A stretch of DNA of 40,302 nt, taken from a virus. Lineage: Duplodnaviria > Heunggongvirae > Uroviricota > Caudoviricetes. The notes below the pieces were generated by a model that ran no database searches, was not told where the DNA came from, and saw only the letters and a list, made by a program, of their open reading frames with translations. A program made the position numbers and the translations under genes. Positions 13,892-37,684 of the stretch are shown here, in pieces. The DNA is taken from the IMG/VR virus record IMGVR_UViG_2654588006_000003. One strand, written 5' to 3'. The first letter of the stretch is position 1. The number at the start of each line of letters is the position of its first letter.

Positions 13892-13959
13892 GAGACCCGG
13901 CGGGGGAGAAATCCCTCGCCACCTCTGATGTGGCAGGCATCCTCAACGCACCCGCACTT

Positions 13960-13986
13960 AACCCGCTTCGGCGGGTTTTTGTTTTT
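13960..13986 (+). terminator. Rho-independent terminator after relBE-hokD
   Basis: cccgc-ttcg-gcggg stem-loop followed by a T-run. Confidence 0.65.
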
Positions 13987-14107
13987 ATTTTCAACGCGTT
14001 TGAAGTTCTGGACGGTGCCGGAATAGAATCAAAAATACTTAAGTAGCGCGCAGGGATAAGAGGGATGGTCCCTTAAAGGGGAGAGCTAATTATCCGGAAG
14101 GATTCTG

Positions 14108-14359: not shown

Positions 14360-14425
14360 ACTCATCTACAATCTTGCGCGGGGCTGAACTCCCGCTGAGT
14401 AACACCGTGCCACCGGAGAAAACCG

Positions 14426-14704
14426 ATGGCACGCAACGCAAAATATTACAATTCTGATAATTCGCCCGTTCTTGCCTGCACGCACGGGCGGTATTCTCAC
14501 GCATTCAAGTCTGAATGGTTCCAGCACCCTCCATGCACTGCAGAACAGGCCGAATGGCTGATTCATTCTTACCGCAGGCGCGGGTTCGAGGTTAAGAAAG
14601 CTCTCAGTCTCGACTATCGGCACTGGATAATCTCTGTCAGGCTGCCTTATTCAGAACGCCCACCACGTGCGTCCCGCACTTTCCAGCAACGGATCTGGAG
14701 GTAA
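14426..14704 (+). CDS. Hypothetical protein (92 aa)
   Basis: ORF with GGAG 9 nt upstream of ATG; ends 1 nt before the proposed GTG start of ydfU; protein-like composition. Confidence 0.4.
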   Translation: MARNAKYYNSDNSPVLACTHGRYSHAFKSEWFQHPPCTAEQAEWLIHSYRRRGFEVKKALSLDYRHWIISVRLPYSERPPRASRTFQQRIWR

Positions 14705-14705
14705 C

Positions 14706-15755: not shown

Positions 15756-15768
15756 GTGGAGAACGAGC

Positions 15769-16521: not shown

Positions 16522-16626
16522 ATGATTTTTGCTGAAGATGGCGACATGATGTTTGCATTTTTCAAAAAATATGGATAAAATTTTTTCAACGATGGGCTTT
16601 GTATACCCGACGTTAAGAAAAAGTAG

Positions 16627-16656
16627 AAAACCCGCTGATGAGCGGGTTTTGTGCTT
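16627..16656 (+). terminator. Rho-independent terminator downstream of quuQ
   Basis: cccgct-gatg-agcggg stem followed by tttt; T/A-rich on both sides so may act bidirectionally. Confidence 0.6.
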
Positions 16657-16942
16657 TAAATGGGGCAATGGTAATGTTGAATCTCATCCCGGGACTCATG
16701 TCTGTTAACTTATTATTTAGCTGGTGACTTGGTTATTTGCCTGATGTTTAAAATGTTTTCTTCCAGTACAATGTCCCTAAACACAATGAGTCTGCTTATT
16801 ATATTATTAGCAGAGCTATTACGGCCAAAGTACAGCATAAGCTTTTAAAGCCAATCAACCAGTCATCAAGACAGACGGGGTTATTCATAAAAACTCTCCA
16901 TGTGTGATCCGATGGGGCCTGAAATTAAAGCTTTAATATAGC

Positions 16943-17155
16943 TCATGAAAGGTAAACATTGGCAGCTGAAGGGCCACGCAGACCATTTATCCGGCAAAAT
17001 TCCACGCGTAATCCGGTGGTAATTTCTTCTGCATCGCGGAGATTGAGCGCTGAAACATGAAGCTGGACATCGATACGACCATCGGATGGGGTGATAAGAC
17101 CCTTGCCGCTTTTGCCGTCAAAGGTTTTGACAATTCCTGTCATTTTACGGGACAA
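16943..17155 (-). CDS. cspF: Cold-shock protein family member CspF (70 aa)
   Basis: ORF track; CSD fold signature; sequence recognised. Confidence 0.9.
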
Positions 17156-17455
17156 AAAAATTCCTTAATACTGATAACTTGGCGCACTATACACACGTTC
17201 CTGAAGAAAGCTATAGTTTTTTGATGGGGTTGAAGATGGCTGGATGTCTAAAATAAACATTGCTTCATATGTTCAACTATGCGTTAATGATTGCGTCGGT
17301 TTGAAGAACAGACGATATACGAAGTAGTTTACTAAAGCAGTTCTCATTTCAGGTGTTATTCACTTATTCCTTCTTTGAGTCTCTCCAATTAAGTACGAAG
17401 TCGTTTCTGTTATGCAAACCATTTATGCCGAAAGGCTCAAGTTAAGGAATGTAGA

Positions 17456-17671
17456 ATGTCAAATAAAATGACTGGTTTAGTAAAATGGTTTAACGCTGAT
17501 AAAGGTTTCGGCTTTATTTCTCCTGTTGATGGTAGTAAAGATGTGTTTGTGCATTTTTCTGCGATTCAGAATGATAATTATCGAACCTTATTTGAAGGTC
17601 AAAAGGTTACCTTCTCTATAGAGAGTGGTGCTAAAGGTCCTGCAGCAGCAAATGTCATCATTACTGATTAA
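17456..17671 (+). CDS. cspB: Cold-shock protein CspB (71 aa)
   Basis: ORF track; [21 protein letters not shown]... with RNP motifs; long AT-rich 5' leader. Confidence 0.9.
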
Positions 17672-17952
17672 AATTCATCGCTCGTCTGTATACGATAACG
17701 AAGAAGGCTGATGCCTGAGTAGAGATACGGACAGAGTAGTGAATATTGGATCTCTTTAATAAAAAGTAAGGAGGTCCAATACATGAAACAATGGCTAGCA
17801 TATTTGGCAAAATCTTAATCAGGAAAAGTATGCTAACCATTGTGGTGAAGTGCAGGTTTGCTGCATGAATAGTTTTACAGCAGAAGCTAACTGCTGGCAT
17901 GGCAAAACAAAGTGCGTAAGTGGATGACTCCCACAAAAAGCACCACAATCTC

Positions 17953-17977
17953 AAACCCGCTCAGGCGGGTTTTTTAT
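17953..17977 (+). terminator. Rho-independent terminator after cspB
   Basis: cccgc-tcag-gcggg stem plus T7 run. Confidence 0.7.
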
Positions 17978-18034
17978 TATCTGCTTTAAATATATTATTA
18001 AAATATAAAAAATACTTGTTACTAATAAAATCAA

Positions 18035-18205
18035 TCAGGCTACAGCTTTAAGATTTGTCTGGAATACTTTGTTGCAATGAGGGCAGATCAAAAGGGCACC
18101 TTTTTGTACTCTTGAAAAACTGTGTTCTGACTCTTGGGTGCAGTTTGGGCAGGAACATTTAACGAGATAATTACGGCGTGATTTTGAGTTTTTACGTTCT
18201 GACAT
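18035..18205 (-). CDS. Small zinc-ribbon protein (56 aa)
   Basis: Internal ATG (MSERKNSKSRRNYLVKCSCPNCTQ...CPHCNKVF) of ORF 18035..18256; two CxxC pairs. Confidence 0.5.
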   Translation of the reverse strand: MSERKNSKSRRNYLVKCSCPNCTQESEHSFSRVQKGALLICPHCNKVFQTNLKAVA

Positions 18206-18424
18206 AGGCTTTTCCTGTATAAATGGCCGTATACAGTACACTAAATATGAAAACATTTCTCGTATTATTATTTTATATATGACTTTCTTTCAAAATAATT
18301 ACCCACATTTTTAATGTGTATGTTTTTTTAGCGCCGTTGAGAACAACGTGTGCTGTCAAAACTACCCCGTAGACTCCGATCTTTTCAAACATATTGCACC
18401 ATCCGTGTACATCGGGGTGAGGAT

Positions 18425-18640
18425 ATGAAATCAATGGATAAGTTAACAACAGGTGTTGCCTATGGCACATCGGCGGGTAATGCTGGTTTCTGGGCATTGC
18501 AGTTACTCGATAAAGTAACTCCGTCACAGTGGGCTGCAATCGGTGTGCTGGGTAGCCTGGTTTTTGGCCTGCTGACGTATCTGACAAATCTTTATTTCAA
18601 GATTAAAGAAGACAGGCGTAAGGCTGCGAGAGGAGAGTAA
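18425..18640 (+). CDS. essQ: Class II holin / pinholin, S21-like (71 aa)
   Basis: [23 protein letters not shown]... from internal ATG of ORF 18350..18640; two Met codons (M1, M4) form a dual-start motif; precedes a SAR endolysin. Confidence 0.9.
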
Positions 18641-18644
18641 TCCA

Positions 18645-18952
18645 ATGACTCAAGACTATGAACTGGTTGTGAAAGGAGTCCGTAATTTTGAGAATAAAGT
18701 TACGGTAACTGTAGCCTTACAGGACAAAGAACGCTTTGACGGTGAAATTTTTGACCTGGATGTCGCCATGGACCGTGTTGAAGGAGCTGCGCTGGAGTTT
18801 TATGAGGCAGCAGCCAGAAGGAGCGTCCGGCAAGTCTTCCTGGAAGTAGCAGAAAAATTGTCAGAAAAAGTTGAGTCTTATCTGCAGCATCAGTACTCCT
18901 TTAAGATTGAAAATCCTGCCAATAAGCACGAGCGTCCTCATCATAAATATCT

Positions 18953-18956
<4 letters not shown>
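18645..18956 (+). CDS. ydfR: YdfR-like protein (103 aa), unknown function
   Basis: ORF track; sits between holin and endolysin. Confidence 0.75.
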
Positions 18957-19980
<1,024 letters not shown>

Positions 19981-20342
19981 GGTAATATTAAATCGGAACA
20001 TTTACATCGCGGAATGTAAAATTTAAATAAAAAGGACTCTTCCATGAGCCAAAATTCCTGAAATCTTAAGGGTAAGATAAAAGGTCTTAATCAGAATGAC
20101 ACGTTTTATTAATAAATAAAGCTATTCTTTCATTGCTGTGTTTTTCTTTACAAAAGTAATCCTTGCTATGGGTGGTTAATCATGCGTTAATGGTGTTCTG
20201 GTTTGTTACAAATTTATCTGAAGCAGTCATTGTTATAATTTTATTATTTGTACCTCTTGAGATTTCCTTGTTGGTTTTTCTCTCTGATATTTTTTTTCGG
20301 ACCATTCTGCCCAAGGGCTAATTTCTTCAAAAGGTAATAATT

Positions 20343-20555
20343 ATGTCTAACAAAATGACTGGTTTAGTGAAATGGTTTAACCCTGAAAAAGGTTTTGGTT
20401 TCATCACGCCGAAAGATGGCAGCAAAGATGTGTTTGTCCATTTCTCAGCAATTCAGAGCAACGATTTCAAAACATTAACTGAGAATCAGGAAGTTGAATT
20501 TGGTATTGAGAACGGACCTAAAGGTCCTGCCGCTGTTCATGTAGTGGCGCTTTGA
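20343..20555 (+). CDS. cspI: Cold-shock protein CspI (70 aa)
   Basis: ORF track; CSD signature [23 protein letters not shown]... Confidence 0.9.
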
Positions 20556-20589
20556 GGTAGACAATATTACAAACCATATTCACTTTAGA

Positions 20590-20752
20590 TGCCCGTGTTG
20601 TCATGGTTCCCAGTATAGAACATCATCTTTTGATGTTTCTGACATGAATCCTTTCGGGGCAAAATGTATCTTTTGTAAATCAATGATGATTACATTTGAT
20701 AATATTTCACAATACTTAAATGCCAGCCGTCTGTCGTTGGATTTAAAAAAGT
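20590..20752 (+). CDS. ynfN: YnfN-like small zinc-ribbon protein; start codon unclear
   Basis: Open frame ...RCPCCHGSQYRTSSFDVSDMNPFGAKCIFCKSMMITFDNISQYLNASRLSLDLKK ending TGA 20750..20752; no in-frame ATG before codon Met-21 (20644). Symbol from memory. Confidence 0.35.
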
Positions 20753-20759
20753 GAAAATG

Positions 20760-20783
20760 AAGGCTCCTTCGGGAGCTTTTTTG
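20760..20783 (+). terminator. Rho-independent terminator
   Basis: gctcc-ttcg-ggagc stem followed by a T6 run. Confidence 0.65.
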
Positions 20784-20864
20784 CTTGGTGTCTATTCGAT
20801 GGATACTCACATACTACGGTAACATCATGAAAAAAATCATAGTTTTTTTAACTCTGAACCAGCA

Positions 20865-21056
20865 GTGGTAGTGCCAGCGATGACTGGAGTTAACACCATC
20901 ATGCGTGAATATCCAAATGGCGAAAAAACACACCTTACTGTAATGGCCGCAGGGTTTCCATCTCTGACCGGAGATCATAAAGTCATTTATGTAGCCGCGG
21001 ATCGACATGTTACTTCAGAAGAAATTCTGGAAGCAGCAATAAGGCTCTTGAGTTGA
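20865..21056 (+). CDS. Hypothetical small protein (63 aa)
   Basis: ORF track only; protein-like composition but no recognised family and weak RBS. Confidence 0.25.
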   Translation: MVVPAMTGVNTIMREYPNGEKTHLTVMAAGFPSLTGDHKVIYVAADRHVTSEEILEAAIRLLS

Positions 21057-21225
21057 TTTGATGCTATTGCATTGATAATTCAGGAAAATTCTCTTTGTCT
21101 GTTTGTGTAAAATTTAGACTATCGTATGTTGATTATTGCGATGTTTCATCTTATCTTTTACACGTTTGCACCATATAATCGACTTACTGTGTAACTGGAA
21201 AGTCATAACAGACTAAAAGAGGAAA

Positions 21226-21401
21226 TGATGAATATTGAAAACTTAAAAACAAAAGCAGAAGCAGATATTTCTGAATATATAACAAAAAAAATTATTGAAC
21301 TTAAGAAAAAGACCGGGAAAGAAGTTACCAGTATTCAGTTTACCGCACGGGAAAAAATGACGGGTCTTGAAAGCTATGATGTCAAGATTAATTTAATCTG
21401 A
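21226..21401 (+). pseudogene. gnsB: gnsB-like gene with 5' frameshift
   Basis: ATGATGAATATTGAA (MMNIE) runs into TAA after 6 codons; the GnsB-like body (...LKTKAEADISEYITKKIIELKKKTGKEVTSIQFTAREKMTGLESYDVKINLI) continues in another frame to TGA 21399..21401. Confidence 0.5.
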
Positions 21402-21552
21402 TGTATTCAATAATAAAATTTATCCATAAACCTCGTTTTTACGGGGTTTTGTTATATTTGAATGGTTCCGAATATCTAAATCACAATTGTTGATGGTTTT
21501 TATTAAACCAATGCAGTCCGGCTCAGGAGTGAGAGAAGCCGGACGTTATGGT

Positions 21553-21963
21553 TTAGCGTGGTAAGATCTGTGTAGTTTTCTGGATGCTTTCAGTAAATAG
21601 TAATGAATTATCAAAGGTATAGTAATATCTTTTTTGTTCGTGGATATTTGTAACCCACCGAAAAACTCCTGCTTTAGCAAGGTTTCTTCTGTATTCCTGA
21701 AATGTGATCTCTCTGGATTTCAGCTTATTAGAGGTCGTTTCTATAAGATGCCTATCCTTTGAAAATTTGACAGACACAATGTTTTTTAGGCCCTTTAATA
21801 ACACTGTATTATCATTTTTTAATACAATATGAACATTCTCTGTGGCTAAATAGTAAATGTAATGTGAGACATTGTGACGTTTTAGCTCAGAATAAAACCA
21901 TTGATAGTTTAAATCGTTTCGAACTTTATCAAATATTTGTTTAAAAATGACTACCTGATCCAT
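21553..21963 (-). CDS. ydfO: YdfO-like DUF1398 protein (136 aa)
   Basis: Internal ATG ([14 protein letters not shown]...) of ORF 21553..21978; sequence recognised. Confidence 0.85.
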
Positions 21964-22020
21964 AGATAAACCTTCCATGTGATATGAGGGGGCGTAGTCT
22001 GCACGATTATCTAAATTGCT

Positions 22021-22254
22021 TCAATCTGGTCTGACCTGTTTTCTGAGCAATTCAGTAATGTCACTCTTTTCTTTGTTTGCTTCAGAAGAAACTCTTTTTT
22101 CTGAGCACAGTCTCCGGCGGCAGGCTTCAATGACCCAGGCTGAGAAATTCCCGGACCCTTTTTGCTCAAGAGCGATGTTAATTTGTTCAATCATTTGGTT
22201 AGGAAAGCGGATGTTGCGGGTTGTTGTTCTGCGGGTTCTGTTCTTCGTTGACAT
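22021..22254 (-). CDS. Small ribbon-helix-helix-like DNA-binding protein (77 aa)
   Basis: ORF track; basic N-terminus then beta-strand/helix pattern (TRNIRFPNQMIEQINIALEQKGSGNFSAWVIEACRRRL); lies just upstream of cos. Confidence 0.5.
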   Translation of the reverse strand: MSTKNRTRRTTTRNIRFPNQMIEQINIALEQKGSGNFSAWVIEACRRRLCSEKRVSSEANKEKSDITELLRKQVRPD

Positions 22255-22419
22255 GAGGTTGCCCCGTATTCAGTGTCGCTGATTTGTATTGTCTGAAGTT
22301 GTTTTTACGTTAAGTTGATGCAGATCAATTAATACGATACCTGCGTCATAATTGATTATTTGACGTGGTTTGATGGCCTCCACGCACGTTGTGATATGTA
22401 GATGATAATCATTATCACT

Positions 22420-22640
22420 TTACGGGTCCTTTCCGGTGATCCGACAGGTTACGGGGCGGCGACCTCGCGGGTTTTCGCTATTTATGAAAATTTTCCGGTT
22501 TAAGGCGTTCCGTTCTTCTTCGTCATAACTTAATGTTTTTATTTAAAATACCCCCTGAAAAGAAAGGAAACGACAGGTGCTGAAAACGAGCTTTTGGGCC
22601 TCTGTCGTTTCCTTTCTCTGTTTTTGGCCGTGGAATGAAC
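22420..22640 (+). other. Lambda-type cohesive end site (cosQ-cosN-cosB)
   Basis: Sequence ...ccgacaggttacg/GGGCGGCGACCT/cgcgggttttcgctatttatgaaaattttccgg... matches the joined lambda right and left ends; 12-nt cohesive end at 22454..22465; lies about 190 bp upstream of Nu1. Confidence 0.85.
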
Positions 22641-22641
22641 A

Positions 22642-23187
22642 ATGGAAGTCAACAAAAAGCAGCTGGCTGACATTTTCGGTGCGAGTATCCGTACCATTCA
22701 GAACTGGCAGGAACAGGGAATGCCCGTTCTGCGAGGCGGTGGCAAGGGTAATGAGGTGCTTTATGACTCTGCCGCCGTTATAAGATGGTATGCCGAAAGG
22801 GATGCTGAAATTGAGAACGAAAAGCTGCGCCGGGAAGTTGAAGAACTGCGGCAGGCCAGCGAGGCAGATCTCCAGCCAGGGACTATTGAGTACGAACGCC
22901 ATCGACTTACGCGTGCGCAGGCCGACGCACAGGAACTGAAGAATGCCAGAGACTCCGCTGAAGTGGTGGAAACCGCATTCTGTACTTTCGTGCTGTCGCG
23001 GATCGCAGGTGAAATTGCCAGTATTCTCGACGGGATCCCCCTGTCGGTGCAGCGGCGTTTTCCGGAACTGGAAAACCGACATGTTGATTTCCTGAAACGG
23101 GATATCATCAAAGCCATGAACAAAGCAGCCGCGCTGGATGAACTGATACCGGGGTTGCTGAGTGAATATATCGAACAGTCAGGTTAA
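22642..23187 (+). CDS. nohA: Terminase small subunit, lambda Nu1-type (181 aa)
   Basis: ORF track; MEVNKKQLADIFGASIRTIQNWQEQGMPVLRGGGKGNEVLYDSAAV... near-identical to lambda Nu1 as recalled; overlaps A by 26 nt as in lambda. Confidence 0.95.
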   Translation: MEVNKKQLADIFGASIRTIQNWQEQGMPVLRGGGKGNEVLYDSAAVIRWYAERDAEIENEKLRREVEELRQASEADLQPGTIEYERHRLTRAQADAQELKNARDSAEVVETAFCTFVLSRIAGEIASILDGIPLSVQRRFPELENRHVDFLKRDIIKAMNKAAALDELIPGLLSEYIEQSG

Positions 23188-25087
23188 CAGGCTGCGGCAT
23201 TTTGTCCGCGCCGGGCTTCGCTCACTGTTCCGGCCGGAGCCACAGACCGCCGTTGAATGGGCGGATGCCAATTACTATCTCCCGAAAGAATCCGCATACC
23301 AGGAAGGGCGCTGGGAAACACTGCCCTTTCAGCGGGCCATCATGAATGCGATGGGCAGTGACTACGTCCGCGAGGTGAATGTGGTGAAGTCTGCCCGTGT
23401 TGGTTATTCCAAAATGCTGCTGGGTGTTTATGCCTACTTCATAGAGCATAAGCAGCGCAACACCCTTATCTGGTTGCCGACGGATGGTGATGCCGAGAAC
23501 TTTATGAAAACCCACGTTGAGCCGACCATCCGCGATATTCCGTCGCTGCTGGCGCTGGCTCCGTGGTATGGCAAAAAGCACCGGGATAACACGCTCACCA
23601 TGAAGCGTTTTTCCAATGGTCGTGGCTTCTGGTGCCTGGGCGGTAAAGCGGCAAAAAACTACCGTGAAAAGTCGGTGGATGTGGCGGGTTATGATGAACT
23701 TGCTGCCTTTGATGAGGATATTGAACAGGAAGGCTCTCCGACGTTCCTGGGCGATAAGCGTATTGAAGGCTCGGTCTGGCCAAAGTCCATCCGTGGCTCC
23801 ACGCCCAAAGTGAGAGGCACCTGCCAGATTGAGCGTGCAGCCAGTGAATCCCCGCATTTTATGCGTTTTCATGTTGCCTGCCCGCACTGCGGGGAGGAGC
23901 AGTACCTTAAATTTGGCGATAAAGAGACGCCGTTTGGCCTCAAATGGACGCCGGATGACCCCTCCAGCGTGTTTTATCTCTGCGAGCATAACGCCTGCGT
24001 CATCCGTCAGCAGGAGCTGGACTTCACTGATGCCCGTTATATCTGCGAAAAGACCGGGATCTGGACCCGTGATGGCATTCTCTGGTTTTCGTCATCCGGT
24101 GAAGAGATTGAACCGCCTGACAGCGTGACCTTTCACATCTGGACGGCGTACAGCCCGTTCACCACCTGGGTGCAGATTGTCAAAGACTGGATGAAGACGA
24201 AAGGGGATACGGGAAAACGTAAAACCTTCGTGAACACCACGCTCGGTGAGACGTGGGAAGCGAAAATCGGTGAACGTCCGGATGCTGAAGTGATGGCAGA
24301 GCGGAAAGAGCATTATTCAGCGCCCGTTCCTGACCGTGTGGCTTACCTGACCGCCGGTATCGACTCCCAGCTGGATCGCTACGAAATGCGCGTTTGGGGA
24401 TGGGGGCCGGGTGAGGAAAGCTGGCTGATTGACCGGCAGATTATTATGGGCCGCCACGACGATGAACAGACGCTGCAGCGTGTGGATGAGGCCATCAATA
24501 AAACCTATACCCGCCGGAATGGTGCAGAAATGTCGGTATCCCGTATCTGCTGGGATACTGGCGGGATTGACCCTACCATTGTGTATGAACGCTCGAAAAA
24601 ACATGGGCTGTTCCGGGTGATCCCCATTAAAGGGGCATCCGTCTACGGTAAGCCGGTGGCCAGCATGCCACGTAAGCGAAACAAAAACGGGGTTTACCTT
24701 ACCGAAATCGGTACGGATACCGCGAAAGAGCAGATTTATAACCGCTTCACACTGACGCCGGAAGGGGATGAACCGCTTCCCGGTGCCGTTCACTTCCCGA
24801 ATAACCCGGATATTTTTGATCTGACCGAAGCGCAGCAGCTGACTGCTGAAGAGCAGGTCGAAAAATGGGTGGATGGCAGGAAAAAAATACTGTGGGACAG
24901 CAAAAAGCGACGCAATGAGGCGCTCGACTGCTTCGTTTATGCGCTGGCGGCGCTGCGCATCAGTATTTCCCGCTGGCAGCTGGATCTCAGTGCACTGCTG
25001 GCGAGCCTGCAGGAAGAGGATGGTGCAGCAACCAACAAGAAAACACTGGCAGATTACGCCCGTGCCTTATCCGGAGAGGATGAATGA
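23162..25087 (+). CDS. A: Terminase large subunit, lambda gpA-type (641 aa)
   Basis: ORF track; length and sequence ([43 protein letters not shown]...) match lambda A. Confidence 0.95.
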
Positions 25088-26448
25088 CGCGACAGGAAGA
25101 ACTTGCCGCTGCCCGTGCGGCACTGCATGACCTGATGACAGGTAAACGGGTGGCAACGGTACAGAAAGACGGGAAAATCCTGCAGGCAGATTACAACACG
25201 CTGATGGCGGCGGCGAAAAAGGACTATGAAGCGACGCTGAAAAAGCCGAAACAGTCCGGCGTGAAGGTGTCTGCGGGCGATCGTCAGGAAGACAGTGCTC
25301 ATGCTGCCCTGCTGACGCTTCAGGCTGAACTCCGGACGCTGGAGAAGCATGCCGGAGCAAATGAGAAAATCAGCCAGCAGCGCCGGGATTTGTGGAAGGC
25401 GGAGAGTCAGTTCGCGGTACTGGAGGAGGCGGCGCAACGTCGCCAGCTGTCTGCACAGGAGAAATCCCTGCTGGCGCATAAAGATGAGACGCTGGAGTAC
25501 AAACGCCAGCTGGCTGCACTTGGCGACAAGGTTACGTATCAGGAGCGCCTGAACGCGCTGGCGCAGCAGGCGGATAAATTCGCACAGCAGCAACGGGCAA
25601 AACGGGCCGCCATTGATGCGAAAAGCCGGGGGCTGACTGACCGGCAGGCAGAACGGGAAGCCACGGAACAGCGCCTGAAGGAACAGTATGGCGATAATCC
25701 GCTGGCGCTGAATAACGTCATGTCAGAGCAGAAAAAGACCTGGGCGGCTGAAGACCAGCTTCGCGGGAGCTGGATGGCAGGCCTGAAGTCCGGCTGGAGT
25801 GAGTGGGAAGAGAGCGCCACGGACAGTATGTCGCAGGTAAAAAGTGCAGCCACGCAGACCTTTGATGGTATTGCACAGAATATGGCGGCGATGCTGACCG
25901 GCAGTGAGCAGAACTGGCGCAGCTTCACCCGTTCCGTGCTGTCCATGATGACAGAAATTCTGCTTAAGCAGGCAATGGTGGGGATTGTCGGGAGTATCGG
26001 CAGCGCCATTGGCGGGGCTGTTGGTGGCGGCGCATTCGCGTCAGGCGGTACAGCCATTCAGGCCGCTGCGGCGAAATTCCATTTTGCAACCGGAGGATTC
26101 ACAGGAACCGGCGGCAAATATGAGCCAGCGGGGATTGTTCACCGTGGTGAATTTGTCTTCACGAAGGAGGCAACCAGCCGGATTGGCGTGGGGAATCTCT
26201 ACCGGCTGATGCGCGGCTATGCCACCGGTGGTTATGTCGGTACACCGGGCAGTCTGGCTGACAGCCGGTCGCAGGCGTCCGGGACGTTTGAGCAGAATAA
26301 CCATGTGGTGATTAACAACGACGGCACGAACGGGCAGATAGGTCCGGCTGCTCTGAAGGCGGTGTATGACATGGCCCGCAAGGGTGCCCGTGATGAAATT
26401 CAGACACAGATGCGTGATGGTGGCCTGTTCTCCGGAGGTGGACGATGA
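25084..26448 (+). CDS. In-frame fusion of head-tail joining protein W N-terminus (about 30 aa) to tape-measure protein H C-terminal part (about 424 aa)
   Basis: Starts [30 protein letters not shown] (lambda W start, overlapping A stop), then continues as a Gln/Ala-rich tape-measure-like sequence ending GGLFSGGGR with ATGA overlap to M, as at the lambda H/M junction. Confidence 0.8.
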
Positions 26449-26774
26449 AAACCTTCCGCTGGAAAGTGAAACCCGGTATGGATGTGGCTTCGGCCCCTTC
26501 TGTAAGAAAGGTGCGCTTTGGTGATGGCTATTCCCAGCGAGCGCCTGCCGGGCTGAATGCCAACCTGAAAACGTACAGCGTGACGCTTTCTGTCCCCCGT
26601 GAGGAGGCCACGGTACTGGAGTCGTTTCTGGAAGAGCACGGTGGCTGGAAATCCTTTCTGTGGACGCCGCCTTATGAGTGGCGGCAGATAAAGGTGACCT
26701 GCGCAAAATGGTCGTCGCGGGTCAGTATGCTGCGTGTTGAGTTCAGCGCAGAGTTTGAACAGGTGGTGAACTGA
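26445..26774 (+). CDS. M: Tail tip protein M (109 aa)
   Basis: ORF track; [16 protein letters not shown]... matches lambda M; overlaps the H-derived ORF stop. Confidence 0.95.
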
Positions 26775-27472
26775 TGCAGGATATCCGGCAGGAAACACTG
26801 AATGAATGCACCCGTGCGGAGCAGTCGGCCAGCGTGGTGCTCTGGGAAATCGACCTGACAGAGGTCGGTGGAGAACGTTATTTTTTCTGTAATGAGCAGA
26901 ACGATAAAGGTGAGCCGGTCACCTGGCAGGGGCGACAGTATCAGGCGTATCCCATTCAGGGGACGGGATTTGAACTGAACGGCAAAGGCAGTGCTGCCCG
27001 TCCGACACTGACGGTTTCTAACCTGCACGGCATGGTCACCGGGATGGCGGAAGATCTGCAGAGTCTGGTCGGCGGAACGGTGGTCCGGCGTAAGGTTTAC
27101 GCCCGTTTTCTGGATGCGGTGAACTTCGTCAACGGAAACAGTGACGCCGATCCGGAGCAGGAGGTGATCAGCCGCTGGCGCATTGAGCAGTGCAGCGAAC
27201 TGAGCGCGGTGAGTGCCTCTTTTGTACTGTCCACGCCGACGGAAACGGACGGCGCTGTTTTTCCGGGACGTATCATGCTGGCCAACACCTGCACCTGGAC
27301 CTATCGCGGCGATGAGTGCGGTTATCACGGTCCGGCGGTCGCGGATGAATATGACCAGCCAACGTTCGATATCACGAAGGATAAATGCAGCAAATGCCTG
27401 AGTGGCTGTAAGTTTCGCAATAACGTCGGCTCCCTTTTCGGGTTCCTTTCCCTTAAAAAGCTTTCCCAGTAA
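26774..27472 (+). CDS. L: Tail tip protein L (232 aa)
   Basis: ORF track; [42 protein letters not shown]... matches lambda L; C-terminal Cys cluster. Confidence 0.95.
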   Translation: MQDIRQETLNECTRAEQSASVVLWEIDLTEVGGERYFFCNEQNDKGEPVTWQGRQYQAYPIQGTGFELNGKGSAARPTLTVSNLHGMVTGMAEDLQSLVGGTVVRRKVYARFLDAVNFVNGNSDADPEQEVISRWRIEQCSELSAVSASFVLSTPTETDGAVFPGRIMLANTCTWTYRGDECGYHGPAVADEYDQPTFDITKDKCSKCLSGCKFRNNVGSLFGFLSLKKLSQ

Positions 27473-27476
27473 TCCC

Positions 27477-28220
27477 ATGACAGAGACAGAATCAGCGATT
27501 CTGGCGCACGCCCTGCGATGTGCGCCAGCGGAGTCGTGCGGCTTCGTGGTGAGAGCGCCGGAGGGGGAAAGATATTTTCCCTGCGTGAATATTTCCGGTG
27601 AGCCGGAGGATTATTTCCGGATGGCTCCGGAGGACTGGCTGCAGGCAGAGATGCAGGGTGAGATTGTGGCGCTGGTCCACAGCCACCCCGGTGGTCTGCC
27701 CTGGCTGAGTGAGGCCGACCGGCGGCTGCAGGTGCAGAGTGATTTGCCGTGGTGGCTGGTCTGCCGTGGGGAGATTCATAAATTCCGCTGTGTGCCGTAT
27801 CTCACCGGGCGGCGCTTTGAGCACGGGGTGACGGACTGTTACACGCTGTTCCGGGATGCTTACCATCTGGCGGGGATTGAGATGCCGGATTTTCATCGCG
27901 AGGATGACTGGTGGCGTCACGGTCAGAATCTCTATCTGGATAATCTGGAGGCCACAGGGCTGTATCAGGTGCCGTTGTCAGCGGCGCAGCCGGGCGATGT
28001 GCTGCTGTGCTGTTTTGGTTCATCGGTGCCGAATCATGCCGCCATTTACTGCGGCGACGGCGAGCTGCTGCACCATATTCCTGAACAACTGAGCAAACGA
28101 GAGAGGTATACCGACAAATGGCAGCGACGCACACACTCCCTCTGGCGTCACCGGGCATGGCACGCATCTGCCTTTACGGGGATTTACAACGATTTGGCCG
28201 CCGCATCGACCTTCGTGTGA
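27477..28220 (+). CDS. K: Tail tip assembly protein K (MPN/JAB plus NlpC/P60-like domains)
   Basis: ORF 27402..28220 with ATG at 27477 (MTETESAIL); HSHPGG JAB motif and Cys/His peptidase-like motif; an alternative internal start at about 27618 (MAPEDW) would give the 199-aa form. Confidence 0.9.
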   Translation: MTETESAILAHALRCAPAESCGFVVRAPEGERYFPCVNISGEPEDYFRMAPEDWLQAEMQGEIVALVHSHPGGLPWLSEADRRLQVQSDLPWWLVCRGEIHKFRCVPYLTGRRFEHGVTDCYTLFRDAYHLAGIEMPDFHREDDWWRHGQNLYLDNLEATGLYQVPLSAAQPGDVLLCCFGSSVPNHAAIYCGDGELLHHIPEQLSKRERYTDKWQRRTHSLWRHRAWHASAFTGIYNDLAAASTFV

Positions 28221-28787
28221 AAACGGGGGCCGAAGCCATCCGGGCGCTGGCCACGCAGCTTCCGTCGTTTCGTCAGAAACTGAGCGACGGCTGGTATCAG
28301 GTACGCATTGCCGGGCGTGATACAGGTGAAACGGAATATCAGCCCGTCTTATGAACCGCTGGCAAATGGTGCTGTGATCCATATCGTGCCGGGTCTGGCA
28401 GGAGCCAAAAGTGGCGGTGTATTCCAGATTGTCCTGGGAGCAGCCTTTCAGGCGGGCTCAGTCGTGACGGCCGGAGCCGCCGTTGCAGCATGGGGGGCAG
28501 CCATTGGGGCCGGTGGTATGTCATGCATCATGTTTTCTCTGGGTGCCAGTATGGTACTTGGTGGTGTGGCGCAGATGCTGGCACCGAAAGCCAGAACTCC
28601 CAGTACACAGACAACGGATAACGGCAAGCAGAACACGTATTTCTCCTCACTGGATAACATGGTTGCCCAGGGCAATGTTCTGCCCGTTCTGTACGGTGAA
28701 ATGCGCGTGGGGTCGCGGGTGGTATCTCAGGAAATCAGCACGGCAGACGAAGGGGACGGTGGTCAGGTTGTGGTGATTGGTCGCTGA
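28118..28787 (+). pseudogene. I: Tail tip assembly protein I, split by a frameshift
   Basis: N-terminal 68 residues in ORF 28118..28354 (MAATHTLPLASPGMARICLYGDLQRFGRRIDLRVKTGAEAIRALATQLP...), C-terminal about 139 residues in a different frame in ORF 28308..28787 (...GAVIHIVPGLAGAKSGGVFQIVLGAA...VVVIGR); total span 670 nt, not a multiple of 3. Confidence 0.8.
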
Positions 28788-28847: not shown

Positions 28848-31800
28848 ATGGGTAAAGGCAGCAGTAAGGGGCATACCCCGCGCGAAGCGAAGGACAACCT
28901 GAAGTCCACGCAGTTGCTGAGTGTGATCGATGCCATCAGCGAAGGGCCGGTTGAAGGTCCGGTGGATGGATTAAAAAGCGTGCTGCTGAACAGTACGCCG
29001 GTGCTGGACAGTGAGGGGAATACCAATATCTCCGGTGTCACGGTGGTGTTCCGGGCCGGTGAGCAGGAGCAGACTCCGCCGGAGGGATTTGAATCCTCCG
29101 GCTCCGAGACGGTGCTGGGTACGGAAGTGAAATACGACACGCCGATCACCCGCGCCATCACGTCGGCAAACATCGACCGACTGCGCTTTACCTTCGGTGT
29201 GCAGGCACTGGTGGAAACCACCTCAAAGGGGGACCGGAATCCGTCGGAAGTTCGCCTGCTGGTTCAGATACAGCGTAATGGTGGCTGGGTGACGGAAAAA
29301 GACATCACCATTAAGGGCAAAACCACCTCGCAGTATCTGGCCTCGGTGGTGGTGGATAACCTGCCGCCGCGCCCGTTTAATATCCGGATGCGCAGAATGA
29401 CGCCGGACAGCACCACAGACCAGCTGCAGAACAAAACGCTCTGGTCGTCATACACCGAAATCATCGATGTGAAACAGTGCTACCCGAACACGGTACTGGT
29501 CGGCGTACAGGTGGATTCGGAGCAGTTCGGCAGCCAGCAGGTGAGCCGTAATTATCATCTGCGCGGGCGTATTCTGCAGGTGCCGTCGAATTATAACCCG
29601 CAGACGCGGCAATACAGCGGTATCTGGGACGGAACGTTTAAACCGGCATACAGCAACAACATGGCCTGGTGTCTGTGGGATATGCTGACCCACCCGCGCT
29701 ACGGCATGGGGAAACGTCTTGGTGCGGCAGATGTGGATAAATGGGCGCTGTATGTCATCGGCCAGTACTGCGACCAGTCGGTGCCGGACGGCTTTGGCAG
29801 CACGGAGCCGCGCATCACCTGTAATGCCTGGCTGACCACACAGCGCAAGGCGTGGGATGTGCTCAGTGATTTCTGCTCGGCGATGCGCTGTATGCCGGTA
29901 TGGAACGGGCAGACGCTGACGTTCGTGCAGGACCGACCGTCGGATAAGGTGTGGACCTATAACCGCAGTAATGTGGTGATGCCGGATGATGGCGCGCCGT
30001 TCCGCTACAGCTTCAGCGCCCTGAAGGACCGCCATAATGCCGTTGAGGTGAACTGGATTGACCCGGATAACGGCTGGGAGACGGCGACAGAGCTTGTGGA
30101 GGACACGCAGGCCATTGCCCGTTACGGTCGTAATGTCACGAAGATGGATGCCTTTGGCTGTACCAGCCGGGGGCAGGCACACCGAGCCGGGCTGTGGCTG
30201 ATTAAAACGGAGCTGCTGGAAACGCAGACCGTGGATTTCAGCGTCGGCGCAGAAGGGCTTCGCCATGTACCGGGCGATGTTATTGAAATCTGTGATGATG
30301 ACTATGCCGGTATCAGCACCGGTGGTCGTGTGCTGGCGGTGAACAGCCTGACCCGGACGCTGACGCTTGACCGTGAAATCACGCTGCCATCCTCCGGTAC
30401 CACGCTGATAAGCCTGGTTGACGGAAGTGGCAATCCGGTCAGCGTGGAGGTTCAGTCCGTCACCGACGGCGTGAAGGTGAAAGTGAGCCGTGTTCCTGAC
30501 GGTGTTGCTGAATACAGCGTATGGGGGCTGAAGCTGCCGAGGCTGCGCCAGCGACTGTTCCGCTGCGTGAGTATCCGTGAGAACGACGACGGCACGTATG
30601 CCATCACCGCCGTGCAGCATGTGCCGGAAAAAGAGGTCATCGTGGATAACGGGGCGCACTTTGACGGCGAACAGAGTGGCACGGTGAATGGTGTCACGCC
30701 GCCAGCGGTGCAGCACCTGACCGCAGAAGTCACTGCAGACAGCGGGGAATACCAGGTGCTGGCCCGCTGGGACACGCCGAAGGTGGTGAAGGGCGTGAGC
30801 TTCCTGCTTCGCCTGACCGTGGCAGCGGATGACGGCAGTGAGCGGCTGGTCAGCACGGCCCGGACGACGGAAACCACTTACCGCTTCACACAACTGGCGC
30901 TGGGGAACTACAGGCTGACAGTCCGGGCGGTAAATGCGTGGGGGCAGCAGGGCGATCCGGCGTCGGTATCGTTCCGGATTGCCGCACCGGCAGCGCCGTC
31001 GCGGATTGAGCTGACGCCGGGCTATTTTCAGATAACCGCCACGCCGCATCTTGCGGTTTATGATCCGACGGTACAGTTTGAGTTCTGGTTCTCGGAAAAG
31101 CGGATTGCGGATATCAGGCAGGTTGAAACCACAGCACGCTATCTTGGCACGGCGCTGTACTGGATAGCCGCCAGTATCAATATCAGGCCGGGCCATAATT
31201 ATTATTTTTACGTTCGCAGTGTGAACACCGTTGGCAAATCGGCATTCGTGGAGGCTGTTGGTCAGCCGAGTGATGACGCATCCGGCTATCTGGATTTTTT
31301 CAAAGGCGAGATAGGGAAAACCCATCTGGCTCAGGAGCTGTGGACGCAGATTGATAACGGTCAGCTTGCGCCTGACCTGGCTGAAATCAGGACATCCATT
31401 ACGGATGTCAGCAATGAAATCACACAGACCGTCAATAAGAAACTGGAAGACCAGAGTGCAGCGATCCAGCAGATACAGAAGGTTCAGGTTGATACAAATA
31501 ATAATCTGAACAGCATGTGGGCTGTGAAGCTGCAGCAGATGCAGGACGGACGCCTTTATATTGCGGGTATCGGTGCCGGTATTGAGAACACCCCCGACGG
31601 CATGCAGAGTCAGGTGCTGCTGGCGGCAGACAGGATTGCGATGATTAATCCTGCAAATGGCAACACAAAACCGATGTTTGTTGGTCAGGGTGATCAGATA
31701 TTCATGAATGAAGTGTTCCTGAAATATCTGACGGCTCCCACCATTACCAGCGGCGGTAATCCTCCTGCATTTTCCCTGACACCGGACGGAAAGCTGACCG

Positions 31801-32327
31801 CTAAAAATGCAGATATCAGTGGCAGTGTGAATGCGAACGCCGGGACGCTCAACAACGTTACGATAAATGAAAACTGTCAGATTAAAGGGAAACTGTCAGC
31901 CAACCAGATTGAAGGCGATATTGTCAAAACAGTGGGTAAGGCTTTCCCGCGGGACTCCCGGGCACCGGAGCGGTGGCCATCAGGGACCATTACCGTCAGG
32001 ATTTATGACGATCAGCCGTTTGACCGGCAGATTGTTATTCCGGCGGTGGCATTCAGCGGTGCTAAACATGAGCGGGAGAATAACGATATTTACTCCTCAT
32101 GCCGCCTGATAGTGAAGAAAAATGGTGCTGAAATTTATAACCGTACCGCGCTGGATAATACGCTGATTTACAGTGGTGTTATTGATATGCCAGCTGGTCA
32201 CGGCCACATGACGCTGGAGTTTTCGGTGTCAGCATGGCTGGTAAATGACTGGTATCCCACAGCAAGTATCAGCGATTTGCTGGTTGTGGTGATGAAGAAA
32301 GCCACCGCAGGCATCAGTATCAGCTGA
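28848..32327 (+). CDS. J: Central tail fibre / host specificity protein J (1159 aa)
   Basis: ORF track; N-terminal and central regions match lambda J as recalled ([34 protein letters not shown]...); fibronectin-like repeats; C-terminal part appears divergent. Confidence 0.95.
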
Positions 32328-33049: not shown

Positions 33050-33058
33050 GGGGTGAAT

Positions 33059-36000
33059 ATGGCAGTAAAGATTTCAGGTGTACTGAAAGACGGCACAGGA
33101 AAACCGGTACAGAACTGCACAATCCAGCTGAAAGCAAAACGTAACAGCACCAGGGTGGTGGTGAACACGCTGGCCTCAGAAAATCCGGATGAAGCCGGGC
33201 GTTACAGCATGGACGTTGAGTACGGTCAGTACAGCGTTATTCTGTTGGTGGAGGGATTCCCGCCGTCACATGCCGGGACCATCACCGTGTATGAAGATTC
33301 TCAACCCGGTACGCTGAATGATTTTCTCGGTGCCATGACGGAGGATGATGCCCGTCCGGAGGCACTGCGCCGTTTTGAACTGATGGTGGAAGAGGTGGCG
33401 CGTAACGCGTCCGCGGTGGCACAGAACACGGCAGCCGCGAAGAAGTCAGCCAGCGATGCCGGCACATCAGCCCGTGAGGCGGCAACCCATGCGACTGATG
33501 CTGCAGGCTCAGCACGTGCAGCCAGCACATCAGCCGGGCAGGCCGCGACGTCGGCTCAGTCAGCGTCTTCCAGCGCAGGAACGGCATCAACAAAGGCTAC
33601 TGAAGCATCAAAAAGTGCTGCCGCTGCAGAGTCCTCAAAAAGCGCGGCGGCTACCAGTGCCGGTGCGGCGAAAAAGTCAGAAACGAATGCCGCAGCGTCA
33701 CAACAATCAGCAGCCACTTCTGCATCCACCGCGACTACGAAAGCGTCAGAAGCTGCCACCTCAGCCCGGGATGCGGCGGCCTCAAAAGAAGCAGCGAAAT
33801 CATCAGAAACGAACGCATCCTCGAGCGTCAGTAGCGCAGCTTCCTCGGCAACGGCGGCAGCAAATTCCGCGAAGGCGGCAAAAACGTCCGAGACGAACGC
33901 CAGGTCTTCTGAGACGGCAGCGGGACAGAGCGCCTCAGCTGCGGCAGGCTCAAAAACAGCGGCTGCGTCGTCTGCCAGTACCGCGTCAACAAGTGCCGGG
34001 CAGGCCTCAGCCAGTGCCACCGCCGCCGGAAAATCGGCAGAAAGTGCCGCATCGTCTGCTTCAACAGCCACAACGAAGGCTGGCGAAGCCACTGAACAGG
34101 CCAACGCAGCAGCGAGGTCAGCTTCCGCAGCGAAGACATCCGAAACGAACGCGAAAGCGTCGGAAACCAGCGCAGAATCCTCAAAAACGGCTGCCGCATC
34201 GTCCGCCAGTTCGGCGGCGTCATCGGCCTCATCGGCGTCTGCTTCAAAAGATGAGGCGACCAGACAGGCATCAGCAGCGAAAGGCAGCGCCACGACGGCA
34301 TCCACGAAGGCAACAGAGGCTGCTGGCAGTGCGACGGCGGCAGCACAGAGCAAGAATACGGCAGAATCCGCAGCAACGCGCGCCGAGACAGCAGCTAAAC
34401 GGGCAGAGGATATTGCATCCGCCGTGGCGCTTGAGGATGCGAGCACGACGAAAAAGGGGATAGTACAGCTCAGCAGTGCGACCAACAGTACGTCTGAAAC
34501 GCTGGCGGCAACGCCAAAGGCAGTAAAATCAGCCTATGACAATGCAGAGAAACGTCTGCAGAAAGACCAGAACGGCGCTGATATACCCGATAAGGGACGC
34601 TTCCTGAACAACATTAACGCGGTCAGTAAAACAGACTTTGCTGATAAGCGTGGTATGCGTTATGTGCGGGTTAACGCTCCTGCAGGTGCAACATCTGGAA
34701 AATATTACCCTGTTGTTGTTATGCGTTCTGCTGGCTCAGTAAGCGAACTGGCATCAAGGGTCATTATCACCACGGCAACGCGAACCGCAGGCGATCCGAT
34801 GAATAACTGCGAGTTTAACGGATTTGTTATGCCTGGTGGCTGGACTGACAGGGGGCGTTATGCTTATGGAATGTTCTGGCAATATCAAAACAATGAACGA
34901 GCCATCCACTCAATAATGATGAGTAATAAGGGCGATGATTTGCGCTCTGTGTTCTATGTTGATGGCGCTGCTTTCCCTGTTTTTGCGTTTATCGAAGATG
35001 GCCTGTCAATATCCGCACCTGGTGCTGATCTCGTTGTTAATGATACGACCTATAAGTTTGGGGCAACAAATCCAGCGACTGAATGTATCGCGGCGGACGT
35101 TATCCTTGATTTTAAGAGTGGGCGTGGTTTTTATGAGTCTCATTCGTTAATCGTTAACGATAATTTGTCGTGCAAAAAACTTTTTGCCACAGACGAAATT
35201 GTAGCGCGTGGTGGTAATCAGATTCGAATGATAGGTGGGGAGTATGGTGCATTATGGCGTAATGATGGCGCTAAAACTTACCTGCTGCTTACCAATCAAG
35301 GTGATGTTTATGGTGGCTGGAATACATTAAGACCGTTTGCTATTGATAACGCAACCGGCGAACTGGTTATTGGAACCAAACTGTCCGCAAGTCTGAACGG
35401 TAATGCATTAACAGCAACAAAGCTGCAAACGCCAAGACTGGTTTCTGGTGTTGAGTTTGATGGTTCCAGAGATATTACTTTAACCGCCGCGCATGTGGCT
35501 GCTTTTGCCAGAAGGGCAACGGATACATATGCCGATGCGGATGGTGGCGTTCCCTGGAATGCCGAATCAGGTGCTTACAATGTCACCCGCTCTGGCGACA
35601 GCTATATTCTGGTTAACTTCTATACCGGAGTCGGAAGTTGCCGGACCTTGCAGATGAAGGCGCATTACAGAAATGGTGGTCTGTTCTACCGTTCTTCAAG
35701 AGACGGTTATGGTTTTGAGGAAGACTGGGCAGAAGTTTATACCTCGAAAAATCTTCCACCAGAAAGCTACCCAGTCGGCGCACCAATCCCGTGGCCATCA
35801 GATACCGTTCCGTCTGGTTATGCCCTGATGCAGGGGCAGGCTTTTGACAAATCTGCTTACCCGAAACTTGCAGCCGCTTATCCGTCAGGCGTGATCCCTG
35901 ATATGCGTGGCTGGACGATTAAGGGCAAACCTGCCAGTGGTCGGGCCGTATTGTCTCAGGAACAGGACGGCATTAAATCTCATACCCACAGCGCCAGCGC

Positions 36001-36421
36001 ATCCAGTACAGATTTGGGGACGAAAACCACATCGTCGTTTGATTACGGCACTAAATCCACGAATAACACCGGGGCACATACACACAGTGTGAGCGGCTCT
36101 ACAAACTCGGCTGGAGCACACACACACTCACTAGCCAACGTGAACACGGCTAGTGCTAACTCCGGTGCTGGTAGTGCATCAACAAGATTGTCTGTTGTGC
36201 ATAATCAAAACTATGCAACATCATCTGCTGGCGCACATACCCACTCACTGTCCGGCACTGCTGCAAGCGCAGGTGCACACGCGCATACTGTCGGTATTGG
36301 TGCTCATACGCACTCCGTTGCGATTGGTTCACATGGACACACCATCACCGTTAACGCTGCTGGTAACGCGGAAAACACCGTCAAAAACATCGCATTTAAC
36401 TATATTGTGAGGCTTGCATAA
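33059..36421 (+). CDS. stfQ: Side tail fibre protein Stf (about 1120 aa)
   Basis: ORF track 33053..36421 with ATG at 33059; long Ala/Ser/Thr-rich fibrous repeat region; C-terminal His-rich GAHTHS repeats; followed by tfa. Confidence 0.9.
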
Positions 36422-36996
36422 TGGCATTCAGAATGAGTGAACAACCACGGACCATAAAAATTTATAATCTGCTGGCCGGAACTAATGAATTTATTGGTGA
36501 AGGTGATGCATATATTCCGCCTCATACAGGTCTGCCAGCAAACAGTACCGATATTGCACCGCCAGATATTCCGGCTGGCTTCGTGGCTGTTTTCAACAGT
36601 GATGAGTCATCGTGGCATCTCGTTGAAGATCATCGGGGTAAAACGGTTTATGACGTGGCTTCCGGCAACGCGTTATTTATTTCTGAACTCGGTCCGTTAC
36701 CGGAAAATGTTACCTGGTTATCGCCGGAAGGGGAGTTTCAGAAGTGGAACGGCACAGCCTGGGTGAAGGATACGGAAGCAGAAAAACTGTTCCGGATCCG
36801 GGAGGCGGAAGAAACAAAAAACAACCTGATGCAGGTAGCCAGTGAGCATATTGCGCCGCTTCAGGATGCTGCAGATCTGGAAATTGCAACGGAGGAAGAA
36901 ATCTCGTTGCTGGAAGCATGGAAAAAGTATCGGGTATTGCTGAACCGTGTTGATACGTCAACTGCACAGGATATTGAATGGCCAGCACTGCCGTAG
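36421..36996 (+). CDS. tfaQ: Tail fibre assembly protein Tfa (191 aa)
   Basis: ORF track; start overlaps stf stop; sequence recognised as the TfaR/TfaQ family. Confidence 0.9.
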
Positions 36997-37093: not shown

Positions 37094-37684
37094 TTATATG
37101 TCAGGTGTCTGAAGTTTTGCTTTGGCTCTTAAAATGGTTTGCCGCGAGGTTTTGAATTCCCGGGCAATGGCACTTATACTTACACCTGACTTAATTCGTT
37201 CGAATACCACCTGTTTCTGTTCTTCATTTAACACAGGTGGTCGACCAAAACGTTTCCCTGCGCCGCGGGCTCTTACTATCCCGGAATGAGTGCGTTCAAG
37301 TAAAAGGTCTCGTTCAAATTCAGCGACTGCTGAAATTACTTGCATCATCATTTTTCCTGTTGGACTGGTCAGGTCAATGCCACCCAATGCTAAGCAATGC
37401 ACTCTGATACCTGTTTCGGTCAGTTGTTCCACTGTTTTCCTGATATCCATTGCATTACAACCAAGGCGATCCAGTTTTGTCACAATCAATTGATCACCAC
37501 ATTTCAGGCGAGCAAGCAACCGGTTAAAACCAGGACGCTCACTGGTTGCTGCTGAGCCGCTAATGTGTTCTTCGATTATTTGCTGAGGTTTGATTTTAAA
37601 ACCTGCACTTTCGATTTCCCGGCGTTGATTTTCGGTGGTCTGATCCAGCGTTGATATCCGACAGTAAGCAAAAATTCGAGACAT
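37094..37684 (-). CDS. pinQ: Pin-family serine DNA invertase (196 aa)
   Basis: ORF track; N-terminal catalytic Ser motif (YCRISTLDQ) and C-terminal HTH; convergent with tfa. Confidence 0.9.

What the first reader, a model, noticed from the sequence alone, without database searches (positions are those of the whole stretch)
28118..28787. Frameshift splits tail tip assembly gene I
The N-terminal third and the C-terminal two thirds of gpI lie in different reading frames, switching between about 28320 and 28354 (TGA at 28352..28354 ends the first frame). The start-to-stop span is 670 nt, 2 nt short of the 672 nt expected for an intact 223-codon gene. This is either a second inactivating lesion in the tail module or a sequencing error.
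Basis: seen in the sequence. Interest (0 to 1): 0.45.

Follow-up and report, generated by a model that had tools for sequence, protein, structure and literature searches.

The report
Broken tail gene in dead prophage
The lambda-type tail-tip gene I in this sequence is broken by two missing single bases 14 nt apart, but it lies in a prophage that has already lost its head and tail-shaft genes, so this is ordinary gene decay or a local sequencing error.

Summary
Gene I (28118..28787, 670 nt) is split. Codons 1-73 read in one frame and run into a TGA at 28352..28354. Codons 80-223 read in the +1 frame from 28353 to 28787.

Aligned to the closest intact allele, the lesion is two separate 1-nt deletions, not one 2-nt deletion. 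They are TT->T after 28337 and AA->A after 28351, with no other mismatch between them. Putting both bases back gives a 672-nt, 223-codon gene with a complete Lambda_tail_I domain. That product matches the solved lambda gpI structure end to end.

All 68 other public copies of this exact motif carry both bases. No sister prophage was found, so inheritance of the lesion could not be tested.

The element is a Qin-like E. coli prophage that is already dead: a 9.1-kb in-frame W'-'H deletion removes the portal through most of the tape measure.

No signal for programmed frameshifting was found. I cannot tell a real mutation (about 0.5) from a local sequencing or assembly error (about 0.4) without reads. 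Either way the finding is ordinary and low in interest.

The parts
28118..28336 (+). Gene I codons 1-73 in the original frame (N-terminal, ubiquitin-like Lambda_tail_I domain, truncated)
   Evidence: Pfam PF06805 E 9e-18, covering profile positions 2-58 of 83.
28337..28338 (+). Deletion site 1: GAATTATC in intact alleles reads GAATATC here (TT->T)
   Evidence: All 68 other copies of the motif keep the base.
28338..28351 (+). 14-nt stretch between the two deletions, carrying the former codons 74-79 (Leu-Ser-Ala-Arg-Leu-Asn; the first and last each lack one base). The four complete codons now read only in the third frame
   Evidence: Frame 2 shows ...ISARLMN...
28351..28352 (+). Deletion site 2: CTTAATGA in intact alleles reads CTTATGA here (AA->A)
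   Evidence: All 68 other copies of the motif keep the base.
28352..28354 (+). Premature TGA that ends the N-terminal reading frame after 78 codons
28353..28787 (+). Gene I codons 80-223 plus stop, in the +1 frame. Includes hydrophobic helices H1/H2, the plug and the beta-strands. The mechanical ORF starts at TTG 28308
   Evidence: 89% identity to lambda gpI 80-223, E 2e-79. Domain roles come from PMC11101478.
27477..28220 (+). Gene K (247 codons, JAB + NlpC/P60), intact. Overlaps the start of I by 103 nt as in lambda
28848..32327 (+). Gene J (1159 codons), intact
25084..26448 (+). In-frame gpW'(residues 1-31)-'gpH(C-terminus) fusion. This is the earlier 9103-bp deletion that removed the portal through most of the tape measure
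   Evidence: The junction sits at the 9-nt microhomology GAAAGACGG, within the 25158..25172 overlap of the two alignments.

Best explanation
Gene I is a pseudogene in a defective Qin-like lambdoid prophage of E. coli.

**Shown.** Two single-base deletions, after 28337 and after 28351, shift the frame twice. Translation from the I start codon ends at TGA 28352..28354 after 78 codons. The product would be a truncated N-terminal domain. Residues 80-223 would not be made. Those residues include the part of gpI that sits as a trimer inside the lambda tail tip and plugs the tube.

**Inferred.** The prophage had already lost the portal, capsid, tail tube and most of the tape measure through a 9.1-kb deletion. 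Gene I was therefore under no selection, and its loss changes nothing for the cell. The two deletions are so close together that they probably arose in one local event rather than independently.
For: - **Lesion defined.** Alignment to intact alleles shows no other mismatch across the lesion. Repair restores 223 codons and the full Pfam domain.
- **Match to lambda gpI.** The repaired product matches PDB 8IYK chain I over residues 1-223 (E 1.8e-123).
- **Each deletion is inactivating.** Either one alone already truncates the protein.
- **The prophage is already dead.** There is a gpW'-'gpH fusion and a 9103-bp deletion relative to the intact O55:H7 Qin.
- **The sequence is otherwise clean.** Positions 1..25172 are 99.885% identical to O55:H7 strain USDA5905, with three single-base indels.
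- **Error-prone runs are intact.** The G6 and T4 runs of gene I, which are miscounted in other public assemblies, are intact here. The missing bases lie in 2-nt runs, which is not a typical homopolymer-error site.
- **Role of gpI.** Three copies sit in the tail tip and form the plug (PMC11101478).
Against: - **Clustering.** Two independent neutral indels landing within 14 nt is improbable: about 0.003 over the 9.7-kb late region, and 0.04 even within gene I alone.
- **Uniqueness.** Both deletions are unique to this sequence. None of the 68 other copies of the motif has either one, and no E. coli complete genome does.
- **No wider decay.** M, L, K, J, lom, stf and tfa are all intact.
- **Other private indels.** The window has two more single-base indels in highly conserved DNA: +C at 10973, absent from 790 genomes, and -T at 22507. 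That fits some consensus error.
- **Inheritance untested.** No sister genome carries the same W'-'H junction.
Confidence: 0.5

Rival explanations
1. Sequencing or assembly artefact. The true gene is intact, and the two bases were lost locally in the consensus. Possible causes are low coverage, or polishing with reads mis-mapped from a paralogous lambdoid prophage.
For: - **Clustering and uniqueness.** The two deletions are clustered and absent from every other copy.
- **Paralogues are common.** E. coli genomes that carry I-like sequence have a median of 2 and up to 12 copies, so mis-mapping is plausible.
- **The lesion sits in a mosaic block.** It lies about 20-35 nt inside a block where the allele switches type.
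- **Other private indels.** The window has two further private homopolymer indels in conserved DNA.
- **Precedent.** Other public assemblies show the same kind of paired single-base loss in gene I (L085: G6->G5 plus T4->T3).
- **Neighbours are intact.** All neighbouring tail genes are whole.
Against: - The lost bases are in 2-nt runs, while the longer G6 and T4 runs in the same gene are correct.
- The first 25 kb differs from a close relative by only three single-base indels, and one of these is shared with strain JP538. The assembly is therefore not generally error-ridden.
- A dead prophage is exactly where real frameshifts are expected.
Confidence: 0.4
2. Split gene still partly used. The downstream ORF would be translated on its own from TTG 28308, GTG 28317 or GTG 28326, giving the membrane/plug part of gpI without its N-terminal domain.
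For: The downstream ORF (159 codons) contains everything resolved in the virion structure, residues 101-223.
Against: - By eye, I saw no clear ribosome-binding site before those start codons in the sequence.
- The ATG that overlaps the stop (28351..28353) is in the wrong frame.
- The prophage cannot build a tail, because tube, chaperones and most of the tape measure are deleted.
- All 68 relatives with this motif keep a single frame here.
Confidence: 0.04
3. Programmed +1 ribosomal frameshift at UUA UGA A (28349..28355). This would give a 222-residue gpI that differs from the intact protein only at residues 74-79.
For: A +1 slip at the stop codon does restore the C-terminal frame exactly. A stop in the A site is the arrangement used by prfB; that comparison is from my own knowledge.
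Against: - It is not conserved: all 68 relatives with this motif are in frame.
- There is no Shine-Dalgarno-like stimulator just upstream.
- The downstream RNA folds no better than shuffled controls (z -0.87), and there is no Rfam match.
- UUA to UAU re-pairing is poor.
Confidence: 0.01

Closest known systems
Bacteriophage lambda gpI (tail tip assembly protein I; Pfam PF06805; PDB 8IYK, 8IYL, 8XCG chain I)
   Same: - Same position in M-L-K-I-J, with the same 103-nt overlap with K.
- 87.7% nucleotide identity over the gene.
- The repaired product aligns to residues 1-223 (E 1.8e-123).
- The C-terminal 144 residues are 89% identical.
   Different: - The frame is broken by two 1-nt deletions.
- The stretch 28318..28420 comes from a different allele family (UMNK88/606R7 type).
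- The hydrophobic H1/H2 block (28446..28530) is a variant with no exact match in IMG/VR, and the best protein match to the repaired product is 89%.
Intact gene I of the E. coli UMNK88 prophage (NC_017641, 1396413..1396955) and phage vB_EcoM-606R7
   Same: Across window 28318..28420 I count one substitution (G for C at 28394) apart from the two missing bases. Over the longer stretch 28290..28455 the identity is 91.7%.
   Different: These genes are in frame. They carry a shorter hydrophobic region, 30 nt less, and a different 3' third.
Qin cryptic prophage of E. coli (full-length form in O55:H7 USDA5905 and strain JP538)
   Same: Window 1..25172 is 99.885% identical to USDA5905. The gene order from int to nohA/terminase is the same.
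   Different: The window lacks 9103 bp, from W to within H. It carries a diverged tail module (94-98% identical) and a broken gene I. Both comparison strains have gene I intact.
Split gene I in other public assemblies (L085 = GCA_046575585.1; L081 = GCA_045583715.1)
   Same: Gene I is broken by single-base deletions. L085 also has two of them, for a net -2.
   Different: Those deletions lie in the G6 and T4 runs, about 150-190 nt further downstream (gene positions 377 and 418, against 220 and 234 here). Those runs are intact in the window.

Membership tests
Lambda gpI / Lambda_tail_I (PF06805) tail tip assembly protein | N-terminal Lambda_tail_I domain above Pfam's gathering score | tested here: met
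   The N-terminal fragment scores 64.9 bits against a cutoff of 23.8 but covers only profile positions 2-58 of 83. The repaired product scores 83.1 bits and covers 2-83 of 83.
Lambda gpI / Lambda_tail_I (PF06805) tail tip assembly protein | Located between K and J in the M-L-K-I-J tail-tip cluster, with its start overlapping K | tested here: met
   M 26445..26774, L 26774..27472, K 27477..28220, I 28118.., J 28848... The overlap is 103 nt, as in lambda.
Lambda gpI / Lambda_tail_I (PF06805) tail tip assembly protein | C-terminal hydrophobic helices, plug and beta-strand region homologous to the part seen in the virion | tested here: met
   144 residues align to lambda gpI 80-223 at 89% identity (E 2e-79). 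They also match PDB 9E7M and 8IYK chains.
Lambda gpI / Lambda_tail_I (PF06805) tail tip assembly protein | One uninterrupted reading frame of about 200-225 codons (a functional gene) | tested here: not met
   The gene is split into 78-codon and 159-codon ORFs in different frames. Each deletion alone gives a premature stop. It is therefore a gpI homologue by descent but not an intact gene.
Programmed ribosomal frameshift site | The two-frame arrangement is conserved in homologues | tested here: not met
   All 68 copies of the motif in GTDB representatives, IMG/VR and metagenomes carry both bases and are in frame. All listed phage and E. coli matches span 672 nt.
Programmed ribosomal frameshift site | A shift-prone codon with a stimulator (upstream Shine-Dalgarno-like element or downstream structure) | tested here: not met
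   By eye, no SD-like element lies within about 10 nt upstream. The downstream fold has z -0.87 against shuffles. There is no Rfam match.
Pseudogene in a defective prophage | The element carries other lesions that already abolish particle production | tested here: met
   There is a 9103-bp deletion from W to H and a gpW'-'gpH fusion.
Pseudogene in a defective prophage | The lesion is present in the DNA itself (supported by reads, or shared by sister genomes) | not testable with these tools
   No reads are available. No sister prophage was found: the junction is absent from 5426 E. coli genomes and from IMG/VR. The exact products of W'-'H, L, K, J and the N-terminal piece of I are not on record.

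The most novel reading that the evidence does not exclude
The break might not be inactivating. Either a +1 ribosomal slip at UUA UGA A (28349..28355) would yield a 222-residue gpI that differs only at residues 74-79. Or the C-terminal membrane/plug part would be made separately and serve some host function in a prophage that can no longer form particles.
Probability: 0.02. Interest if true: 0.45.

Novelty: already known. Interest (0 to 1): 0.07.

Why it matters
It matters little biologically. The prophage cannot make particles with or without gene I.

The practical value is for annotation:
- 28118..28787 should be labelled as a frameshifted gene I pseudogene, not as two hypothetical proteins.
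- The exact positions to check in the reads are 28337/28338 and 28351/28352.

A pair of clustered deletions found nowhere else is also a useful flag for local consensus quality in this assembly.

Tried and rejected
- **Sister genomes.** I looked for sister genomes that would show whether the lesion is inherited. Exact-product look-ups for the 78-residue fragment, J, L, the W'-'H fusion and K found nothing. M is too common to help. The W'-'H junction is absent from E. coli complete genomes and from IMG/VR.
- **The mutated motif elsewhere.** It was not found in IMG/VR or metagenomes.
- **An intact twin of this mosaic allele.** The best protein match is 89%. The unusual hydrophobic block has no exact match in IMG/VR.
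- **Programmed frameshifting.** Rejected: no conservation, no stimulator, no RNA structure and no Rfam hit.
- **A single 2-nt deletion.** Rejected: only two separate 1-nt gaps align without mismatches.
- **The 1-nt difference after 27472 (L-K spacer).** I considered it as a further lesion. It is a common natural variant, seen in 17 other loci.
- **Private indel versus substitution load as a test for sequencing error.** There are 2 private indels against at most 5 private substitutions in 22.5 kb. These numbers are too small to decide.

Full report
**What is there.** The region 28118..28787 is the homologue of lambda tail gene I. It follows M (26445..26774), L (26774..27472) and K (27477..28220), and it precedes J (28848..32327, 1159 codons). 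Its start overlaps K by 103 nt, as in lambda. The ORF list shows two pieces in different frames: 28118..28354 (78 codons) and 28308..28787 (159 codons). The second is +1 relative to the first. TGA at 28352..28354 ends the first frame. The whole span is 670 nt, against 672 nt in lambda and in every listed phage or E. coli match.

**The exact lesion.** The gene is a mosaic. Its 5' and 3' parts are lambda-like, and 28318..28420 belongs to another allele family. Against intact members of that family (E. coli UMNK88, phage 606R7), the window matches base for base across the break except for two single-base gaps. GAATTATC reads GAATATC (a T is lost after 28337), and CTTAATGA reads CTTATGA (an A is lost after 28351). 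The gaps are 14 nt apart. Codons 1-73 are in the original frame. The four complete codons between the gaps (Ser-Ala-Arg-Leu) read only in the third frame. Codons 80-223 are in the +1 frame.

Re-inserting both bases gives a 223-codon protein containing ...RDTGETELSARLNEPLANG..., a motif seen in intact proteins P0005 and P0012. The repaired protein has a complete Lambda_tail_I domain and an end-to-end match to the solved lambda gpI (8IYK chain I, E 1.8e-123). Either deletion alone already produces a premature stop.

**How unusual it is.** I scanned for the 38-40-nt motif with both bases made optional. It was found 2 times in GTDB species representatives, 37 times in IMG/VR and 29 times in metagenomes. 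All 68 copies carry both bases. The mutated form occurs nowhere in IMG/VR or metagenomes, and no E. coli complete genome or phage record matches the window across the break. The lesion is private to this sequence.

**Context.** The window is a Qin-type prophage.
- Positions 1..25172 are 99.885% identical to the full-length Qin of E. coli O55:H7 USDA5905.
- The ORF 25084..26448 fuses the first 31 residues of gpW to the C-terminus of the tape measure gpH.
- Against the intact relative this is a 9103-bp deletion at the 9-nt microhomology GAAAGACGG. It removes the portal, protease, capsid, head-tail connectors, tail tube, chaperones and most of H.
- The other late genes (Nu1, A, M, L, K, J, lom, stf, tfa) are intact.

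**Consequence.** In lambda, three gpI copies sit inside the tail tip. Residues 101 onward form two hydrophobic helices, a plug (159-175) that closes the tube, and strands threaded through gpJ. The N-terminal domain is not resolved (PMC11101478). Translation from the I start here would give only 73 authentic residues plus five wrong ones, with a truncated N-terminal domain and none of the structural part.

**Alternatives tested.** A +1 slip at UUA UGA A would restore the frame exactly. However, the arrangement is not conserved in any relative, there is no upstream Shine-Dalgarno-like element, the downstream RNA is no more stable than shuffles (z -0.87), and there is no Rfam match. Independent translation of the downstream ORF lacks an obvious ribosome-binding site by my reading of the sequence, and the ATG overlapping the stop is in the wrong frame.

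**Real mutation or artefact.** This cannot be settled here.

*For a real lesion:*
- Gene I is unselected in a dead prophage.
- The lost bases are in 2-nt runs. The G6 and T4 runs of the same gene are miscounted in other public assemblies (L085, L081) but are correct here.
- The first 25 kb shows only three single-base indels against a close relative, one of them shared with strain JP538.

*For an artefact:*
- Two indels within 14 nt are unlikely to be independent (about 0.003 over the late region).
- Nothing else in the tail module has decayed.
- The break lies just inside a mosaic block in a gene family present in several copies per genome (median 2, up to 12).
- The window carries two other private single-base indels in strongly conserved DNA. 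C4->C5 at 10973 is absent from 790 genomes, and TTT->TT at 22507 is absent from every full-length match among about 4000 genomes.

No sister prophage exists in the collections to test inheritance. I put a real lesion at about 0.5 and an artefact at about 0.4.

**Verdict.** This is a correctly spotted but ordinary feature: a frameshifted gene I in an already defective Qin-like prophage, or a local consensus error. It belongs to a known kind and is of low interest. Its main use is as an annotation note and as a pointer to check reads at 28337/28338 and 28351/28352.

Noticed in passing
window 25084..26448 (junction within 25158..25172): In-frame fusion of gpW residues 1-31 to the C-terminus of tape measure gpH. 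It marks a 9103-bp deletion at the 9-nt microhomology GAAAGACGG that removes the portal through most of H. The junction is absent from 5426 E. coli complete genomes and from IMG/VR.
   Followed up: yes
window 10973: A private extra C (C4->C5) splits the ISNCY-transposase remnant into ORFs 10522..11004 and 10937..11836. All 790 E. coli genomes that carry this region have C4.
   Followed up: yes
window 22507: A private loss of one T (TTT->TT) in the intergenic region upstream of nohA/Nu1. Every full-length match among about 4000 E. coli genomes has TTT.
   Followed up: yes
window 20842: The T-run in ynfN is one base shorter (T7) than the T8 in O55:H7 USDA5905. The same state occurs in strain JP538, where ynfN is annotated as frameshifted, so this one is an inherited variant.
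   Followed up: partly
window 28446..28530: The hydrophobic H1/H2 block of gene I is an unusual in-frame variant (AAFQAGSVVTAGAAV...MSCIM). It has no exact match in IMG/VR, and the best protein match to the repaired gpI is 89%. This part of gpI is hypervariable among alleles.
   Followed up: partly
L085 7675..8346 and L081 7673..8343: Other public E. coli assemblies also have gene I split by single-base deletions, but in the G6 run (both) and the T4 run (L085, net -2). These are probably homopolymer consensus errors.
   Followed up: partly
window 27472/27473: The L-K spacer is 1 nt shorter than in the three closest relatives. The same short form occurs in 17 other fetched loci, so it is a common polymorphism and not a lesion.
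   Followed up: yes
window 37094..37684 (-) and 33053..36996: A Pin-type serine invertase (pinQ-like) lies next to the side tail fibre and fibre-assembly genes. Whether an invertible segment is present was not examined.
   Followed up: no
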